From a virus: 14,650 nucleotides of DNA. The DNA lies in UHGV virus genome UHGV-0042153; one strand, written 5' to 3'. The translations under genes were made by a program, and so were the position numbers. Positions 2,765 to 14,650 of the stretch are shown here, in pieces. The notes under the pieces were generated by a model. That model worked only from the letters and a program-made list of their open reading frames with translations. It ran no database searches and was not told the DNA's origin. The stretch's first letter is position 1; every line of letters starts with the position of its first letter.

Positions 2765-3208
2765 ATGGCTCAGGCTGCCATTTTTAAAGAAATATTCGAT
2801 CAAGTGCGTAAAGATTTAAACTGTGAATTATTTTATTCTGAGCTAAAACGTCACAATATCTCACTTTATATTTACTATTTAGCCACAGATAATATTCACA
2901 TTGTGTTAGNNNNNNNNNNAGATAATATTCACATTGTGTTAGAAAACGACAACATAGTGTTAGTAAAAGGACTCAAAAAGGTTGTAAATGTTAAATTCTC
3001 CAGAAACAAACATCTTATAGAGACCTCCTATAATAAGTTGAAATCAAAAGAAATCACATTTCAACAATACAGGGAAAATCTTGCTAAAGCAGGAGTTTTC
3101 CGATGGGTTACAAATATCCAGGAACACCAAAGATATTACTATGCCTTTGATAACTCATTACTATTTACTGAAAGCATCCAGAAAACTACACAGATCTTAC
3201 CACGCTAA
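2765..3208 (+). CDS. ydfO: YdfO-like (DUF1398) prophage protein; reading frame passes through a 10-N gap
   Basis: Track ORF 2750..3208; I prefer ATG 2765 ([11 protein letters not shown]..., GGAAGG upstream). The gap plus a 23-bp duplicated flank adds 33 nt in frame (DNIHIVL-XXXX-DNIHIVL). Confidence 0.65.
2887..2942. repeat. Identical 23-bp sequence (AGATAATATTCACATTGTGTTAG) on both sides of the first N run
   Basis: Direct reading; typical of an unmerged contig overlap or an assembly break in a tandem repeat. Confidence 0.8.
2910..2919. other. Assembly or masking gap (10 N)
   Basis: Run of n characters. Confidence 0.95.
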
Positions 3209-3359: not shown

Positions 3360-3533
3360 TCAGATTAAATTAATCTTGACATCATAGCTTTCAAGACCCG
3401 TCATTTTTTCCCGTGCGGTAAACTGAATACTGGTAACTTCTTTCCCGGTCTTTTTCTTAAGTTCAATAATTTTTTTTGTTATATATTCAGAAATATCTGC
3501 TTCTGCTTTTGTTTTTAAGTTTTCAATATTCAT
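3360..3533 (-). CDS. gnsB: GnsB-like small protein (57 aa)
   Basis: Below the track cutoff; manual translation MNIENLKTKAEADISEYITKKIIELKKKTGKEVTSIQFTAREKMTGLESYDVKINLI with AGAGGA upstream of the ATG; matches the GnsA/GnsB family as I recall it and the gnsB position in Qin. Confidence 0.7.
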   Translation of the reverse strand: MNIENLKTKAEADISEYITKKIIELKKKTGKEVTSIQFTAREKMTGLESYDVKINLI

Positions 3534-3999: not shown

Positions 4000-4206
4000 C
4001 TTCATTTTCACTTTTTTAAATCCAACGACAGACGGCTGGCATTTAAGTATTGTGAAATATTATCAAATGTAATCATCATTGATTTACAAAAGATACATTT
4101 TGCCCCGAAAGGATTCATGTCAGAAACATCAAAAGATGATGTTCTATACTGGGAACCATGACAACACGGGCATCTAAAGTGAATATGGTTTGTAATATTG
4201 TCTACC

Positions 4207-4419
4207 TCAAAGCGCCACTACATGAACAGCGGCAGGACCTTTAGGTCCGTTCTCAATACCAAATTCAACTTCCTGATTCTCAGTTAATGTTTTGAAATCG
4301 TTGCTCTGAATTGCTGAGAAATGGACAAACACATCTTTGCTGCCATCTTTCGGCGTGATGAAACCAAAACCTTTTTCAGGGTTAAACCATTTCACTAAAC
4401 CAGTCATTTTGTTAGACAT
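4207..4419 (-). CDS. cspI: Cold-shock protein, CspA family
   Basis: 70 aa; RNP1 KGFGFI and RNP2 VFVHF motifs; sequence matches CspI as I recall it. Confidence 0.9.
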
Positions 4420-4782
4420 AATTATTACCTTTTGAAGAAATTAGCCCTTGGGCAGAATGGTCCGAAAAAAAATATCAGAGAGAAAAACCAACAAGGAAAT
4501 CTCAAGAGGTACAAATAATAAAATTATAACAATGACTGCTTCAGATAAATTTGTAACAAACCAGAACACCATTAACGCATGATTAACCACCCATAGCAAG
4601 GATTACTTTTGTAAAGAAAAACACAGCAATGAAAGAATAGCTTTATTTATTAATAATAACGTGTCATTCTGATTAAGACCTTTTATCTTACCCTTAAGAT
4701 TTCAGGAATTTTGGCTCATGGAAGAGTCCTTTTTATTTAAATTTTACATTCCGCGATGTAAATGTTCCGATTTAATATTACC

Positions 4783-6809: not shown

Positions 6810-7090
6810 TGAGATTGTGGTGCTTTTTGTGGGAGTCATCCACTTACGCACTTTGTTTTGCCATGCCAGCAGTTAGCTTCTGCTGTAAAACTATTCATGC
6901 AGCAAACCTGCACTTCACCACAATGGTTAGCATACTTTTCCTGATTAAGGTTTTGCCAAATATGCTGGCCATTGTTTCATGTATTGGACCTCCTTATTTT
7001 TATTAAAGAGATCCAATATTCACTACTCTGTCCGTATCTCTACTCAGGCATCAGCCTTCTTCGTTATCGTATACAGACGAGCGATGAATT

Positions 7091-7306
7091 TTAATCAGTA
7101 ATGATGACATTTGCTGCTGCAGGACCTTTAGCACCACTCTCTATAGAGAAGGTAACCTTTTGACCTTCAAATAAGGTTCGATAATTATCATTCTGAATCG
7201 CAGAAAAATGCACAAACACATCTTTACTACCATCAACAGGAGAAATAAAGCCGAAACCTTTATCAGCGTTAAACCATTTTACTAAACCAGTCATTTTATT
7301 TGACAT
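7091..7306 (-). CDS. cspB: Cold-shock protein, CspA family
   Basis: 71 aa; KGFGFI and VFVHF motifs; matches CspB as I recall it. Confidence 0.9.
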
Positions 7307-7606
7307 TCTACATTCCTTAACTTGAGCCTTTCGGCATAAATGGTTTGCATAACAGAAACGACTTCGTACTTAATTGGAGAGACTCAAAGAAGGAATAAGT
7401 GAATAACACCTGAAATGAGAACTGCTTTAGTAAACTACTTCGTATATCGTCTGTTCTTCAAACCGACGCAATCATTAACGCATAGTTGAACATATGAAGC
7501 AATGTTTATTTTAGACATCCAGCCATCTTCAACCCCATCAAAAAACTATAGCTTTCTTCAGGAACGTGTGTATAGTGCGCCAAGTTATCAGTATTAAGGA
7601 ATTTTT

Positions 7607-9006: not shown

Positions 9007-10095
9007 TTACGCCAGTACGCCAATTGCCAGCGCGCGATCGATAAAACGAAATATCAGCTCCAGTTGGGAGCCATACTTCTCTTCAAATGCCACTGTATCC
9101 GTATGCAGCTCGTTGTGATGCTTTCTGCACAAAGGCAACACAAAGAGATCATGTGCTTTTGTTCCCATTCCGCCCTGCCCGTGACCAATCAGATGATGCG
9201 GATCGTCGGCTGGCATACCGCAGCAAGCACACGGCTGTGTCTTAACCCAACGTGTGTATTTCTCCTTAACCCAGCGGCGACGTTTAGGCAGCTTCATGAA
9301 AGATTCCGGAGACTCTGGATCAACGGTGATGCTTACCACCGTCTTTTCCTGTGGTGGTTTTTGTTGCTGGTAGGCGTAAGGCAACGGTGCAAGATTTTTT
9401 GTGCGTTGTTTCAATATGCTGGTGGCGGTCTGCTCTCCCGGTACGATGTCGCTTTCGCGGTACACCGAGCAGATTTTTTCCGCTGGTAATCCCAGCGAAC
9501 GACGCGATACAGCCTCAGGTAGTGCATCCACCACCTGATTGCAGACCGCCCACCAGGATAATTCAGCCAAAGATAATTCCCGCTCCTGCGTACCGCTTAT
9601 TGCGTGACGGATGACGTCAATCACCCATGCTGTCAGATTTTGTTGAGCAAGCAGATCCAGTGATTCCGATGTCTGGTCACGCAGTTGGTTGTCGCAGTGC
9701 CAACACAACACCATTGCGCCGGTACCATAACGGTGAATGACTGTTTCAGAGTGATGGTAATCGCCATTAGGCCACTGGCAGGATGTAACATGACGTAATA
9801 GCCAGTCAGACAATGCGCCAACGCCGCCAGCAGCACGAATCACCCGTTCGTTACTAAAAAACGGCAGCAATGTTTTGTCTTCCACCAGCGGCTGGCGAAC
9901 GGCAGGAACGACTCCGGATGGCAGATTACGCATGCTTTTTGGTTCCGGTTCCACCAGCACTCGAGGATTATGAAATATCTGTATGGATTCACGGCCCGGC
10001 TTAAGGACCACCAGCCCAAGCTCAGGCACCAGAACAGGTCTAAGTAATACCCGCACGTTACCTCCAGATCCGTTGCTGGAAAGTGCGGGACGCAC
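9007..10095 (-). CDS. ydfU: DUF968-type nin-region protein with C-terminal HNH-like Cys/His cluster
   Basis: 362 aa, GTG start; motif QPCACCG...DDPHHLIGHG...CRKHHNELH; position between rem and Q as in Qin. Exact start uncertain. Confidence 0.8.
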   Translation of the reverse strand: MRPALSSNGSGGNVRVLLRPVLVPELGLVVLKPGRESIQIFHNPRVLVEPEPKSMRNLPSGVVPAVRQPLVEDKTLLPFFSNERVIRAAGGVGALSDWLLRHVTSCQWPNGDYHHSETVIHRYGTGAMVLCWHCDNQLRDQTSESLDLLAQQNLTAWVIDVIRHAISGTQERELSLAELSWWAVCNQVVDALPEAVSRRSLGLPAEKICSVYRESDIVPGEQTATSILKQRTKNLAPLPYAYQQQKPPQEKTVVSITVDPESPESFMKLPKRRRWVKEKYTRWVKTQPCACCGMPADDPHHLIGHGQGGMGTKAHDLFVLPLCRKHHNELHTDTVAFEEKYGSQLELIFRFIDRALAIGVLA

Positions 10096-10770: not shown

Positions 10771-10802
10771 AAAATAAAAACAAAAACCCGCCGAAGCGGG
10801 TT
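10771..10802 (-). terminator. Intrinsic terminator (minus-oriented) immediately left of gap 2
   Basis: AACCCGC-CGAA-GCGGGTT hairpin followed by a U-run on the minus strand. Confidence 0.5.
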
Positions 10803-10812
10803 AAGTGCGGGT

Positions 10813-10822
10813 NNNNNNNNNN
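10813..10822. other. Assembly or masking gap (10 N)
   Basis: Run of n characters. Confidence 0.95.
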
Positions 10823-11164: not shown

Positions 11165-11170
11165 GCATGT

Positions 11171-11200
11171 AAAAAGGCCCCAACACATGTGCGTGGGGCC
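11171..11200 (-). terminator. Intrinsic terminator (minus-oriented) between the tRNAs and the holin
   Basis: GGCCCCA/TGGGGCC stem followed by a U-run on the minus strand. Confidence 0.45.
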
Positions 11201-11440
11201 TGAGAGTATACATGGTTTCAGTCAACTGCATGGTGCCGGGTGCCTCCCGGTGAATTCAGTACCAGCACCTGAATCCGCGATTATCCCATATACCTACTCG
11301 CTGATTGCCCCTCCGCACAGGGGGATTCACCATGCCAGTTTCTTTTAACAAACTCCCCGCAAAACAGACAACTGTCAACCGTCTGAATTGTGAGACATTT
11401 AAAAAAAAGGCCCGCAAAAGCGAGCCGGGAAAAATAAGTC

Positions 11441-11517
11441 TGGCGCGTTGTACTGGATTCGAACCAGTGACCGATTGCTTAGAAGGCAATTGCTCTGTCC
11501 GGTTGAGCTAACAACGC
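11441..11517 (-). tRNA. tRNA-Arg, anticodon TCT
   Basis: Manual fold: 7-bp acceptor stem GCGTTGT/ACAACGC, D-arm GCTC...GAGC, anticodon loop CTTCTAA, T-loop GGTTCGAATCC, encoded CCA. Confidence 0.85.
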
Positions 11518-11530
11518 AGGGTACAGATAA

Positions 11531-11607
11531 TGGACCGCCATCGAGGACTCGACCCCCGCGCAACCAGCTTCGAAGGCTGGTGCTCTATCCTGATGAGCTA
11601 ATGGCGG
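11531..11607 (-). tRNA. tRNA-Arg, anticodon TCG
   Basis: Manual fold: acceptor CCGCCAT/ATGGCGG, perfect anticodon stem CCAGC/GCTGG with loop CTTCGAA, encoded CCA. 5' end could be offset by 1 nt. Confidence 0.75.
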
Positions 11608-11614
11608 TATGTGA

Positions 11615-11690
11615 TGGTGGCCCTTGCTGGATTTGAACCAGCGACCTGGCGATTATGAGTCGCTCGCTCTCACCTCTGAGCTAAAGGGCC
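11615..11690 (-). tRNA. tRNA with anticodon CAT, ileX-like (tRNA-Ile2 type)
   Basis: Acceptor GGCCCTT/AAGGGCC; anticodon loop CTCATAA; closely resembles E. coli ileX as I recall it. Ile versus Met cannot be settled from the fold alone. Confidence 0.8.
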
Positions 11691-12958: not shown

Positions 12959-14080
12959 TTACCCGAGCACGCCAGTTGCAAAGGCGTGATCAAGAAAACG
13001 AAAAATTAAATCAACCTGAGAACCATGCTTTTCTTCGAACGCCAGAGGATCCGCATGAAGCTCGTTGTGATGCTCCCGACACAGCGGTAGCGTGAAAATA
13101 TCGTGAGATTTTGTCCCCATTCCGCCCTGACCATGACCAATCAGGTGATGGGGATCGTCGGCTGGCTTACCACAACACGCACACGGCTGTGTCTTCACCC
13201 AGCGTGTGTATTTCTCGTTAACCCAGCGGCGACGTTTAGGTCGTTTCATGAAAGATTCCGGAGACTCAGGATCAACGGCAATGCTGACCACCGTCTTTTC
13301 CTGTGGTGGGTTCTGTTGCTGGTGGGCGTGAGGCAGCGGCGCAAGATTTTTTGTGCGCTGTTTCAGTATGCTGGTGGCGGTCTGCTCTCCCGGTACGATG
13401 TCGCTTTCACGGTACATTGAGCGGATTTTTTCCGCACGCAACCCCAGCGAACGACGTAATACCGCTTCCGGTAGCGCGTCCGCCACCTGATTGCGGACCG
13501 CCCACCAGGATAATTCAGCCAGAGATAATTCACGCTCCTGCGTACCGCTTATTGCGTGACCGATGACGTCAATCATCCATGCTGACAGGTTTTGATGAGC
13601 AAGTTGCTCGAGTGATTCGGATGTCTGGTCACGCAACTGGTTGTCGCAGTGCCAGCACAACACCATTGCGCCGGTACCATAACGGTGAATGACGGTTTCA
13701 CTGTGGTGATAATCACCGTGTGGCCACTGGCAGGATTTAATATGGCGCAACAGCCAGTCAGACAGTGCACCAGCGCCGCCAGCAGCACGAATCACACGCT
13801 CATTGCTGAAAAATGGCAGTAATGATTTATCCTCCGCCAGCGGCTGGCGAACGGCAGGAACGACCCCGGACGGCAGATTACGCATGCTTTTCGGTTCAGG
13901 CTCCACCAGCACTCGAGGGTTATGAAATACTTGCATGGATTCACAGCCCGGCCTAAGGACCACAAGCCCGAGTTCCGGTACCAGAACAGGTCGAAGTAAT
14001 ATCCGCACGTTACCTCCAGATCCGTTGCTGGTATGTGCGGGATGGGCGCGGTGGGCGTTCGGAATAAGGGAGCCTGACAT
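12959..14080 (-). CDS. DUF968-type protein, second copy (paralog of 9007..10095)
   Basis: 373 aa; same HNH-like motif (QPCACCGKPADDPHHLIGHG...CREHHNELH); most positions identical to copy 1 with scattered substitutions. Confidence 0.8.
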   Translation of the reverse strand: MSGSLIPNAHRAHPAHTSNGSGGNVRILLRPVLVPELGLVVLRPGCESMQVFHNPRVLVEPEPKSMRNLPSGVVPAVRQPLAEDKSLLPFFSNERVIRAAGGAGALSDWLLRHIKSCQWPHGDYHHSETVIHRYGTGAMVLCWHCDNQLRDQTSESLEQLAHQNLSAWMIDVIGHAISGTQERELSLAELSWWAVRNQVADALPEAVLRRSLGLRAEKIRSMYRESDIVPGEQTATSILKQRTKNLAPLPHAHQQQNPPQEKTVVSIAVDPESPESFMKRPKRRRWVNEKYTRWVKTQPCACCGKPADDPHHLIGHGQGGMGTKSHDIFTLPLCREHHNELHADPLAFEEKHGSQVDLIFRFLDHAFATGVLG

Positions 14081-14282
14081 AGATTATCCAGTGACGATAA
14101 TCGAGGCTGAGGGCTTTCTTAATCTCGTATCCGCGTCTGCGGTAGTTATGAATTAGCCATTCGGCCTGTTCTTCAGTACATGGTGGGTGTTGGTACCAGT
14201 CGGTTTTAAATGCGTGTGAACGCCGCTCATGCCGGATGGCAAGGTCGGTATCAGAATTGTGAAATTTGGTTTTGTGCGCCAT
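14010..14282 (-). CDS. Conserved small phage protein, second copy (paralog of 10058..10336)
   Basis: 90 aa; shared C-terminal half HPPCTEEQAEW...YRRRGYE[VI]KKALSLDYRHWII.VRLPYSERPPR. Confidence 0.55.
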   Translation of the reverse strand: MAHKTKFHNSDTDLAIRHERRSHAFKTDWYQHPPCTEEQAEWLIHNYRRRGYEIKKALSLDYRHWIIYVRLPYSERPPRPSRTYQQRIWR

Positions 14283-14354
14283 CTGTTTTCTCTGCTGGCG
14301 CAGCAGGTGTCAGGTGTTCAGGCTGACGTGCGAATTGTAAACCAGAATGCCAGG

Positions 14355-14381
14355 AAAAAACAAAACCCGCCGAAGCGGGTT
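14355..14381 (-). terminator. Intrinsic terminator (minus-oriented) downstream of hok, immediately left of gap 3
   Basis: Same AACCCGC-CGAA-GCGGGTT hairpin as at 10785-10802, followed by a U-run on the minus strand. Confidence 0.5.
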
Positions 14382-14391
14382 AAGTGCGGGT

Positions 14392-14401
14392 NNNNNNNNN
14401 N
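14392..14401. other. Assembly or masking gap (10 N)
   Basis: Run of n characters. Confidence 0.95.
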
Positions 14402-14437
14402 GATGCACTCACTGGCGGTCACTGAACAACGGGTCTC

Positions 14438-14593
14438 TTACTCCTCATGTTCGTAAGCTGTGAAGACAGCGGCCTCCGTCTGGCCGGTTCGGATTCGTAC
14501 CCCCCAGAGGTCTTTCCTCGTTACCAGTGCCGTCACAATGACGGTTAAACAGATGACGATCAGGGCGATTAACATCGCCTTTTGCTGCTTCAT
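14438..14593 (-). CDS. Hok/Gef-family type I toxin (51 aa), HokD/RelF-like
   Basis: Internal ATG of track ORF 14438..14650 with GGAG RBS: MKQQKAMLIALIVICLTVIVTALVTRKDL...; single transmembrane helix; an overlapping upstream frame (mok-like) starts at the window edge. Confidence 0.8.
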   Translation of the reverse strand: MKQQKAMLIALIVICLTVIVTALVTRKDLWGVRIRTGQTEAAVFTAYEHEE

Positions 14594-14650
14594 AGCCTGC
14601 TTCTCCTTGCCTTTCGGCACGTAAGAGGCTAACCTACATGTGTCTAGCAT

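What the first reader, a model, noticed from the sequence alone, without database searches (positions are those of the whole stretch)
14438..14650. Hok-family toxin at the window edge; regulatory partner lies outside
The 51-aa Hok-like ORF has an overlapping upstream frame (mok-like) that begins at the last bases of the window, so the Sok antisense RNA and promoter would be just beyond 14650. The sequence reads RKDLWGV where I recall a cysteine in HokD, but that recollection is uncertain.
Basis: partly seen in the sequence, partly recalled or inferred. Interest (0 to 1): 0.4.

Follow-up and report, generated by a model that had tools for sequence, protein, structure and literature searches.

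The report
Ordinary prophage hok/sok toxin locus
This is an ordinary copy of the well-known Hok membrane-toxin gene and the start of its antisense-RNA control region from an E. coli prophage. Its one odd feature, a missing key cysteine, sits on a tiny chimeric piece of a draft assembly and is probably a sequencing or assembly error.

Summary
The ORF is real. Window 14438-14593 (-) encodes a 51-aa Hok/Gef toxin (Pfam E=1.2e-19), and an in-frame ATG at 14650-14648 extends it to 70 aa. The window comes from E. coli draft scaffold GG771603.1 (GCA_000164215.1).

It is a prophage hok/sok locus of the hokW-sokW type, not the K-12 relBE-hokD operon. The 57 nt upstream of hok match the hok/sok leader, not relE. 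The scaffold shows no relBE upstream; it has a second hok leader, a queH fragment and Kiwa genes.

The sok promoter (-35 at 14607-14612, -10 at 14630-14635, + strand) lies inside the window and is identical to the tested sokW promoter. Only the body of Sok lies beyond 14650.

The W30-G31 version (TGC GAG to TGG GGG) is a singleton among about 15 billion proteins, 5,426 E. coli genomes and 185,579 species genomes. It sits on a 314-bp contig between two 10-N gaps, and the last 30 nt of that contig are ccmF sequence. hok is multi-copy in this genome and broke the assembly.

I rate the variant as a probable artefact (about 65%). If real, it removes the conserved periplasmic cysteine and probably disables the toxin. 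Already known; low interest.

The parts
14438..14593 (-). hok coding sequence (51 aa plus stop), HokD/HokW clade
   Evidence: ORF list. Pfam HOK_GEF E=1.2e-19. PGAP calls the homologous gene hokD in thousands of E. coli genomes.
14501..14506 (-). Codons 30-31, TGG GGG (Trp-Gly), where relatives have TGC GAG (Cys-Glu). Singleton variant.
   Evidence: The exact protein is a 1-member, 1-contig cluster. No hit in genome contigs. The best of 7,402 E. coli places is 96.8% identical.
14453..14455 (-). Tyr47 codon TAC followed by G. This is the TACG motif at which TadA recodes Tyr to Cys in hokC/D/E mRNAs, creating the partner of Cys30.
   Evidence: Sequence. Editing and disulfide literature: PMC5630033 and PMC12214031.
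14603..14608 (-). hok Shine-Dalgarno sequence AAGGAG
   Evidence: Direct reading. Invariant in alignment A1.
14588..14650 (-). 3' part of the hok mRNA leader, from the mok-equivalent start (ATG at 14650-14648) through the 19 in-frame codons, cut by the window end
   Evidence: Rfam RF01794 'sok' model positions 97-157, 33.6 bits, E=4.4e-6, flagged 5'-truncated. The full-length match in the relative L001 scores 119.9 bits.
14607..14635 (+). sok promoter: -35 TTGCCT (14607-14612), 17-nt spacer, -10 TAACCT (14630-14635)
   Evidence: Identical to the hokW-sokW sequence. Primer YO-406 (the promoter-side end of the fragment that expressed functional sokW) matches 14590-14611. Probe YO-597 matches 14605-14634. 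Mutagenic primers YO-421/422 change exactly the TAACCT box in the 'pro-less' construct (PMC8621323; mapping). The promoter falls below the generic consensus scan threshold.
14642..14650 (+). Inferred first ~9 nt of Sok antisense RNA; the rest lies beyond the window
   Evidence: Start inferred from the -10 position. The 74-nt antisense stretch in the source scaffold (L002 3394-3467, - strand) folds as a 5' tail plus long hairpin plus U-tract: -30.3 kcal/mol, z=-5.5. The paper states that sokW has 71 nt of complementarity.
14402..14431 (.). Foreign tail of the 314-bp contig: 30 nt identical to the core gene ccmF, replacing the hok 3' UTR (chimeric contig end)
   Evidence: 100% match to ccmF in more than 5,300 E. 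coli genomes. Junction read. Relatives continue ...GAGACCCGGCGAGGGAG... here.
14392..14401 (.). 10-N scaffold gap, present in the public record and not a mask. It hides about 50 nt of hok 3' UTR, including most of the fold-back (fbi) element.
   Evidence: Alignment A1.
14354..14391 (-). End of the hok transcript: last 4 nt of fbi (ACCC), terminator hairpin 14381-14364 and T-run
   Evidence: Terminator scan. Identical to L001.
10785..10812 (-). Second hok 3' end with terminator, next to rem. It starts after another 10-N gap at exactly the same base (ACCCGCACTT), which shows hok is a multi-copy repeat that broke the assembly.
   Evidence: K-12/BL21-type 3' end in A1.

Best explanation
[quoted passage not shown] It sits at its usual place upstream of the 90-aa ORF, DUF968, RusA and Q late-control genes of a lambdoid prophage in an E. 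coli draft genome.

Mechanism, inferred from R1 hok/sok and Sp5 hokW-sokW. The hok mRNA is made from a promoter about 230 nt beyond the window edge. It is kept inert by 5'-3' (tac-fbi) fold-back and becomes translatable only after 3' trimming. Ribosomes starting at the mok-equivalent ATG (14650-14648) open the hok ribosome-binding site. The short-lived Sok RNA is transcribed on the + strand from the promoter at 14607-14635. It pairs with the mok start region and triggers RNase III cleavage. When Sok falls, for example on prophage induction, the 51-aa Hok inserts into the inner membrane and depolarises it.

Shown here: family membership, leader homology, identity of the sok promoter to the experimentally mutated sokW promoter, presence of the Sok hairpin in the source scaffold, and absence of relBE. 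Inferred: transcription, processing and toxicity.

The unusual Trp30-Gly31 is most likely (about 65%) an error of the draft assembly rather than biology.
For: Family and clade: Pfam HOK_GEF 1.2e-19; 97.7% DNA identity to annotated hokD across 221 nt in thousands of genomes.

Architecture: a 5'-truncated Rfam sok-family hit at 14588-14650, with full hits in the relative L001 (119.9 bits) and in the source scaffold (101 bits). The hok promoter TTGGCG-17-TAGAAT lies directly upstream of the leader in L001. The sok promoter and flanks are identical to the primers and probe of the hokW-sokW study. The Sok hairpin has z=-5.5.

No relBE: alignment A1 and scaffold gene content.

Artefact reading of W30-G31:
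- The exact 51-aa protein is a 1-member, 1-contig cluster, and the 70-aa form is on one contig only.
- The variant DNA has 0 hits in 185,579 species genomes.
- None of 7,402 E. coli places exceeds 96.8% identity over the 3' 93 nt.
- The gene sits on a 314-bp contig between two 10-N gaps.
- The end of that contig is 30 nt of ccmF.
- The scaffold carries three hok leader pieces and two hok 3' ends that break at the same base, as expected for a collapsed or fragmented repeat.
Against: I could not inspect reads, so the artefact verdict is circumstantial. The change is two substitutions that keep the reading frame, which is not the typical indel-type error. The other two amino-acid differences on the same contig (V41A, P49H) are genuine natural polymorphisms (L004; P0002, P0003 and P0006), so the contig is not generally garbage. 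An independent assembly (L007) also has Trp at position 30 (W-P), so Cys30 loss can occur or recur. The generic sigma-70 scan finds no promoter in 14250-14650, so the sok promoter call rests on identity to sokW, not on consensus strength. The fold-back element and the 5' tac region of this particular copy are not visible, because both fall in gaps.
Confidence: 0.85

Rival explanations
1. Trp30-Gly31 is a real allele. This would be a hok gene that lost the conserved periplasmic cysteine, so the Cys30-Cys47 (edited Tyr47) disulfide cannot form. The toxin would be attenuated or dead: a naturally disarmed prophage hok copy.
For: The frame is preserved, and the neighbouring differences V41A and P49H are natural. 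Other Cys30 replacements exist: C30Y in 86 collection blocks, W-P in L007 and S-E. In HokB, toxicity requires the corresponding disulfide (PMC12214031), and the Cys is hard-coded in all other E. coli Hok proteins (PMC5630033). Loss of function under selection is therefore plausible.
Against: It is a singleton in every collection searched. It lies on a 314-bp chimeric contig between gaps. It needs two nearby substitutions that create a G6 run. Unlike L007, the change does not perfect the local inverted repeat: the hairpin goes from -17.6 to -14.4 kcal/mol.
Confidence: 0.3
2. It is the K-12-type hokD (relF), the third gene of a relB-relE-hokD operon with no mok or sok, as the first reader half expected.
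For: PGAP names the orthologous CDS hokD. The coding sequence is about 97% identical to K-12 hokD. The downstream neighbours (rem-like ORF, DUF968) resemble the Qin prophage.
Against: In K-12, similarity starts only about 18 nt upstream of the hok ATG, and relE sequence lies upstream of that. Window 14612-14650 instead matches the hok/sok leader of BL21 and MB06231 base for base and the Rfam sok family. The source scaffold has no RelB or RelE domain gene upstream.
Confidence: 0.02
3. The real product is the 70-aa protein started at 14650-14648: an N-terminally extended Hok (a 'Mok-Hok' fusion) rather than separate Mok and Hok peptides.
For: The upstream ATG is in frame (57 nt). It has a GAGG 8 nt upstream in relatives. 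85 of 120 homologue representatives are called with a 19-residue extension. A few representatives lack the internal ATG yet keep the long ORF.
Against: The extension peptide is not conserved: MLDTCRLASYVPKGKEKQA versus MLVTYRLPLTDRKVKEKQA arise from compensating frameshifts. This fits 'translation, not product, matters', as shown for R1 mok (PMC9841398). The internal ATG has a strong AAGGAG. HokW was toxic when expressed as the 51-aa form (PMC8621323).
Confidence: 0.15

Closest known systems
hokW-sokW of Sakai prophage 5 (E. coli O157:H7), PMC8621323
   Same: Lambdoid-prophage location. 51-aa toxin beginning MKQQKAM. The DNA from the hok ATG through the sok -35 and -10 boxes is identical to the published primers and probe. 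The antisense Sok is about 71-74 nt.
   Different: The HokW C-terminus differs: its reverse cloning primer decodes to ...DYESEK, against ...AYEHEE here. HokW, like Hok of R1 with which the paper aligns it, is expected to carry Cys at the position where this copy has Trp; I did not retrieve the HokW sequence to check. The mok-region sequence differs slightly (CAATCCATGCTGAAC versus CCAATTTCATGCTAGAC).
hok/sok/mok of plasmid R1 (the paradigm type I TA system)
   Same: Same Pfam family and same leader RNA family (Rfam RF01794). GAGG followed by 8 nt before the mok start. 19 mok codons before the hok ATG. The sok promoter lies between the mok and hok starts. A tac/fbi fold-back is visible in complete relatives.
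   Different: HokW, a close relative of this toxin, shares 44% identity with R1 Hok. R1 mok is out of frame with hok (58-nt offset), whereas here it is in frame (57 nt). Chromosomal prophage rather than plasmid, so the role is probably not plasmid maintenance.
hokD (relF) of the Qin prophage, E. coli K-12
   Same: Nearly identical coding sequence and 3' UTR/terminator, and the same downstream neighbours (rem, ydfU/DUF968).
   Different: K-12 hokD has lost the promoter, tac, mok and sok, and sits behind relBE. This copy keeps the hok/sok-type leader. K-12 has Cys30-Glu31, Val41 and Pro49.
HokB (E. coli K-12), the disulfide and TadA-editing model
   Same: Two periplasmic positions (29/30 and 46/47), one hard-coded as Cys and the other a TACG tyrosine. 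The TACG at Tyr47 is intact here.
   Different: In HokB the edited site is position 29 and Cys46 is hard-coded. Here the hard-coded Cys (position 30) is replaced by Trp, so no disulfide partner would exist.

Membership tests
Hok/Gef toxin family (Pfam PF01848) | Significant full-length match to the family profile | tested here: met
   70.1 bits against a cut-off of 22, E=1.2e-19, profile positions 1-42 of 42.
Hok/Gef toxin family (Pfam PF01848) | About 50-aa peptide with an N-terminal hydrophobic helix containing the conserved membrane Cys (HokB C14 equivalent) | tested here: met
   51 aa. MLIALIVICLTVIVTALV with Cys15 (TGT at 14551-14549). Conservation of this Cys is stated in PMC12214031.
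Hok/Gef toxin family (Pfam PF01848) | Periplasmic Cys (or TACG-Tyr) at the position equivalent to HokB 29 / HokD 30 | tested here: not met
   Trp (TGG) at codon 30. 116 of 120 homologue representatives have Cys. The literature says one of the two positions is always hard-coded Cys. The deviation is probably an assembly error.
Hok/Gef toxin family (Pfam PF01848) | Cys or editable TACG-Tyr at the position equivalent to HokB 46 / HokD 47 | tested here: met
   TAC followed by G at 14455-14452. Tyr in 107 of the 107 representatives that could be placed in register.
Hok/Gef toxin family (Pfam PF01848) | Toxicity: membrane depolarisation on expression | not testable with these tools
   Shown for HokW and other homologues (PMC8621323; bioRxiv 10.1101/2025.08.07.668861) but not for this allele.
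[quoted passage not shown] | mok-type leader ORF starting about 19 codons upstream of hok, with its own SD | tested here: met
   ATG at 14650-14648. GAGG 8 nt upstream in the source scaffold and relatives. The ORF is in frame with hok, unlike R1.
[quoted passage not shown] | Antisense sok promoter between the mok and hok starts, and a Sok RNA complementary to the mok start region | tested here: met
   The promoter at 14607-14635 is identical to the mutated sokW promoter. The Sok hairpin and U-tract are present in L002 3394-3467. Transcription itself was not tested.
[quoted passage not shown] | hok promoter and 5' tac/ucb leader | tested here: inconclusive
   These lie outside the window. On this 314-bp contig they are cut off by a gap (L002 3384-3393). 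A separate, non-identical leader copy with promoter lies just upstream (L002 3160-3383, 101 bits).
[quoted passage not shown] | 3' fold-back (fbi) element complementary to the 5' end | tested here: inconclusive
   Relatives have CCTCAATGCACCC opposite the 5' GGGTGCTTGAGG (by inspection). Here only the final ACCC survives next to the N-gap, and a ccmF fragment replaces the rest.
relB-relE-hokD operon (K-12 Qin arrangement) | relE stop codon about 70 nt upstream of hokD, with relB-relE directly upstream and no mok or sok | tested here: not met
   Alignment A1 shows K-12 diverging from this locus about 18 nt upstream of the hok ATG. There are no RelB or ParE/RelE domains in the 3.4 kb upstream in the scaffold.

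The most novel reading that the evidence does not exclude
Trp30-Gly31 is genuine. Together with the W-P allele of L007 (which turns a quasi-palindrome into a perfect inverted repeat), it would mark codons 30-31 of prophage hok genes as a recurrent mutational hotspot where the toxin's essential periplasmic cysteine is knocked out. That would be a natural route for disarming multi-copy prophage Hok toxins.
Probability: 0.2. Interest if true: 0.25.

Novelty: already known. Interest (0 to 1): 0.1.

Why it matters
It matters little for biology. hok/sok loci are among the best-studied toxin-antitoxin systems. This clade is abundant in E. coli prophages: 4,724 of 5,426 complete genomes have a match, with a median of 2 copies. 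This very protein is already annotated as Hok/Gef in the public record.

The useful lessons are practical. First, multi-copy prophage TA loci fragment draft assemblies, so odd residues on sub-kilobase contigs next to N-gaps should not be read as biology. Second, the name 'hokD' given by annotation pipelines does not imply the relBE operon context. Third, the antitoxin promoter of a hok/sok locus lies between the mok and hok starts, so a window that contains hok's ribosome-binding region already contains the sok promoter.

Tried and rejected
- An exact-sequence look-up of the 51-aa protein in the gene-position index found nothing. The 70-aa form located the source scaffold.
- A scan of 185,579 species genomes for the variant 23-mer gave 0 hits.
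- The generic sigma-70 consensus scan of 14250-14650 found no promoter. I rejected this as evidence against sok, because the TTGCCT/TAACCT pair scores 7 of 12, below the tool's threshold of 9, yet is the experimentally mutated sokW promoter.
- I considered that all four amino-acid differences were read-end errors. I rejected that for V41A and P49H, which occur in other isolates.
- I tested whether W-G could be a templated quasi-palindrome correction like L007. It is not: it lowers hairpin stability.
- I looked for Cys31 loss-of-function data in the FASTBAC-Seq supplement. The file is not held.
- A literature search for an in-frame mok description found nothing specific.
- Weak Rfam hits (isrK, CRISPR-DR, RsmY and similar) at the terminator hairpin are chance matches far below the gathering scores.

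Full report
OBSERVATION. The ORF list shows a 70-aa ORF at 14438..14650 on the minus strand. Its internal ATG (14593-14591) follows an AAGGAG ribosome-binding site and gives the 51-aa peptide MKQQKAMLIALIVICLTVIVTALVTRKDLWGVRIRTGQTEAAVFTAYEHEE. Pfam HOK_GEF matches it end to end (70.1 bits, E=1.2e-19). The reported motif RKDLWGV is present (TGG GGG at 14506-14501). The upstream ATG at 14650-14648 is 57 nt, or 19 codons, before the hok ATG, so it is in the same frame. In plasmid R1 the published coordinates put the mok ATG at 116-118 and the hok ATG at 174-176, a 58-nt offset in a different frame (PMC9841398).

SOURCE. The 70-aa protein occurs on exactly one public contig, scaffold GG771603.1 of assembly GCA_000164215.1 (E. 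coli), fetched as locus L002. The reverse complement of the window is identical to L002 from position 3459 for the 6,213 bases up to the end of L002. The runs of ten N in the window (2910-2919, 10813-10822, 14392-14401) are in the public record, so they are scaffold gaps and not masking.

WHAT THE LOCUS IS. I aligned the source scaffold with complete E. coli genomes (MB06231, BL21(DE3), K-12) and an IncFII plasmid hok/sok locus (alignment A1).
- The window's last 57 nt are base-for-base the hok/sok-type leader found in MB06231 and BL21.
- In K-12, similarity begins only about 18 nt upstream of the hok ATG, and relE sequence lies upstream of that.
- Rfam's sok family (RF01794, which models the hok leader strand) hits 14588-14650 as a 5'-truncated match to model positions 97-157 (33.6 bits, E=4.4e-6). 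It hits the complete leader in MB06231 at 119.9 bits.
- In MB06231 a TTGGCG-17-TAGAAT promoter sits directly upstream of the leader. The 3' UTR carries CCTCAATGCACCC, complementary to the 5' GGGTGCTTGAGG with one bulge (by inspection). This is the tac/fbi fold-back of the R1 paradigm.

The locus is therefore a full hok/sok-type system whose coding sequence annotation pipelines happen to name hokD. It is not the truncated relBE-hokD operon.

WHERE SOK IS. The hokW-sokW study of Sakai prophage 5 (PMC8621323) cloned functional sokW on a fragment whose promoter-side primer (YO-406) anneals to TCATAGCCTGCTTCTCCTTGCC. It abolished sokW with primers YO-421/422, which change TAACCT to GAGCCG.
- These sequences are all present, identical, in the window: YO-406 at 14590-14611, probe YO-597 at 14605-14634, -35 TTGCCT at 14607-14612 and -10 TAACCT at 14630-14635 on the + strand.
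- The sok promoter and the probable start (about 14642) are thus inside the window, and only the body of Sok lies beyond it.
- In the source scaffold that body (L002 3394-3467, antisense) folds into a 5' single-stranded tail, a long hairpin and a U-tract (-30.3 kcal/mol, z=-5.5).
- A generic sigma-70 scan misses this promoter, because the boxes match only 7 of 12 consensus positions. The assignment rests on identity with the tested sokW promoter.

NO relBE. The called genes upstream of hok in L002 are a QueH fragment, KwaB, KwaA (the Kiwa defence system) and QueH. There is no RelB or ParE/RelE domain. The scaffold also carries two further hok-leader pieces (L002 2819-2884 and 3227-3383).

THE Trp-Gly ODDITY. 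K-12, BL21, MB06231 and DAX4 all read TGC GAG (Cys-Glu).
- Among the 120 best cluster representatives from a collection of about 15 billion proteins, 116 have Cys at this position. The exceptions are W-G (this one), W-P, Y-E and S-E.
- The exact 51-aa protein forms a cluster of one member on one contig (P0001).
- The variant 23-mer is absent from 185,579 species genomes.
- None of 7,402 matching places in 5,426 complete E. coli genomes exceeds 96.8% identity over the 3' 93 nt.
- The other two amino-acid differences are ordinary polymorphisms: V41A in strain DAX4 and P0006, and P49H in P0002 and P0003, the latter a 900-member cluster.

ASSEMBLY CONTEXT. The gene lies on a 314-bp contig (L002 3394-3707, equal to window 14402 to beyond 14650) between two 10-N gaps.
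- The last 30 nt of that contig (14402-14431) are 100% identical to the core gene ccmF in more than 5,300 genomes. They replace the normal hok 3' UTR, which resumes after the gap at ACCCGCACTT and runs into the terminator.
- A second hok 3' end, next to rem, starts after another gap at exactly the same base (window 10785-10812).
- E. coli genomes typically carry two or more such loci.

hok is therefore a repeat that broke this assembly. The contig carrying the variant is chimeric, and its placement is uncertain.

VERDICT ON THE VARIANT. I put about 65% on W30-G31 being an artefact and about 30% on a real allele. Three points count against an artefact. The change is two frame-preserving substitutions. 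The contig's other differences are natural. An independent assembly (L007, GCA_053565815.1) also has Trp30 (W-P). In L007 the change TGCGAG to TGGCCG makes the local inverted repeat perfect (CTGGCCGGT...ACCGGCCAG), and the hairpin goes from -17.6 to -26.9 kcal/mol. That is the signature of a template-switch event. The window's change does not do this (-14.4 kcal/mol).

CONSEQUENCE IF REAL. In E. coli Hok proteins one of two periplasmic positions is always hard-coded Cys. The other is a TACG tyrosine that TadA editing recodes to Cys (PMC5630033). In HokB the resulting intramolecular disulfide and DsbA are required for toxicity (PMC12214031). Here the TACG tyrosine (Tyr47, 14455-14453) is intact but its partner Cys30 is Trp, so the toxin would be predicted to be attenuated or inactive. 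This is inference and was not tested.

MECHANISM. The following comes from R1 and hokW-sokW and is inferred for this copy. A stable hok mRNA is held untranslatable by 5'-3' fold-back. Slow 3' trimming refolds it and exposes the mok start. Translation through the 19 leader codons opens the hok ribosome-binding site. Abundant but unstable Sok pairs with the mok start region, and RNase III destroys the duplex. In a prophage, Sok falls after SOS induction, and HokW then accumulates in the inner membrane, which advances lysis and doubles phage release (PMC8621323).

NOVELTY. None. The locus type, its prophage location and its regulation are all described, and the protein is already annotated as Hok/Gef in the public record. 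Interest is low (0.1). The most novel surviving reading is a recurrent Cys30-destroying hotspot that disarms prophage Hok toxins. I give it a probability of about 0.2, and it would be of modest interest.

Noticed in passing
L002 941-2580 (source scaffold, 0.9-2.5 kb beyond the window end): KwaA and KwaB (the Kiwa anti-phage defence system) lie between a full queH-like gene and a hok leader copy, just upstream of the hok region. The stretch upstream of hok differs in every genome examined: relBE in K-12, DUF977 in BL21, an 850-bp AT-rich spacer plus a large hypothetical protein in MB06231, and Kiwa/queH here. This suggests a cargo or defence hotspot bordered by hok/sok.
   Followed up: partly
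window 10785-10822: A second hok 3' end with terminator sits directly next to rem. It begins after a 10-N gap at the same base as the copy at 14391. On the other side of the gap a P21-type holin gene is cut off. The scaffold appears to join the late region of one lambdoid prophage to a Qin-like prophage (rem, DUF968, Q, csp genes, DUF1327, lysozyme, Rz-like).
   Followed up: partly
window 14594-14650 and homologue set P0001-P0120: In this Hok clade the mok-equivalent ORF is in frame with hok. 85 of 120 representatives are called with a 19-residue extension. The extension peptide differs between alleles by compensating frameshifts (MLDTCRLASYVPKGKEKQA versus MLVTYRLPLTDRKVKEKQA). A few representatives lack the internal hok ATG. 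An IncFII plasmid hok locus (L005) also has a 57-nt in-frame offset, unlike R1's 58 nt. I found no paper that discusses this.
   Followed up: partly
L008 and L009, 601-756 (protein P0004): A widespread HokD allele has Cys30 replaced by Tyr (TGC to TAC). It is listed in 86 blocks of the collection. In two of the three places shown it sits behind relB and relE; the third (L009) has no called gene upstream. The new codon lies in a TACG context (CTC TAC GAG), the TadA editing motif, so both periplasmic positions would be editable tyrosines as at HokB position 29.
   Followed up: partly
L007 410-565 (GCA_053565815.1, 584-bp contig): A diverged hok allele has Trp-Pro at codons 30-31. The 3-nt change makes a perfect 9-bp inverted repeat with the sequence 20 nt downstream, and the hairpin goes from -17.6 to -26.9 kcal/mol. 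This looks like a quasi-palindrome template-switch event or a hairpin-related sequencing artefact.
   Followed up: partly
window 11165-11690: Downstream of the Q antiterminator gene is a prophage tRNA cluster: Met-CAT (possibly an Ile2-type tRNA), Arg-TCG and Arg-TCT. It is followed by a full-length STnc100 sRNA match (140 bits).
   Followed up: no
window 4180-4565 and 7075-7467: Two cspA-type thermoregulator leaders with csp genes (112.8 and 158.8 bits), as in the cspI and cspB/cspF genes of the Qin prophage.
   Followed up: no
window 12959-14080 and 9007-10095: Two paralogous DUF968 genes with weak, sub-threshold HNH-nuclease (HNHc_6) hits. Each follows a small ORF and precedes a Q-type antiterminator of a different family (Phage_antiter_Q versus Antiterm with a DnaJ-type zinc finger).
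   Followed up: no
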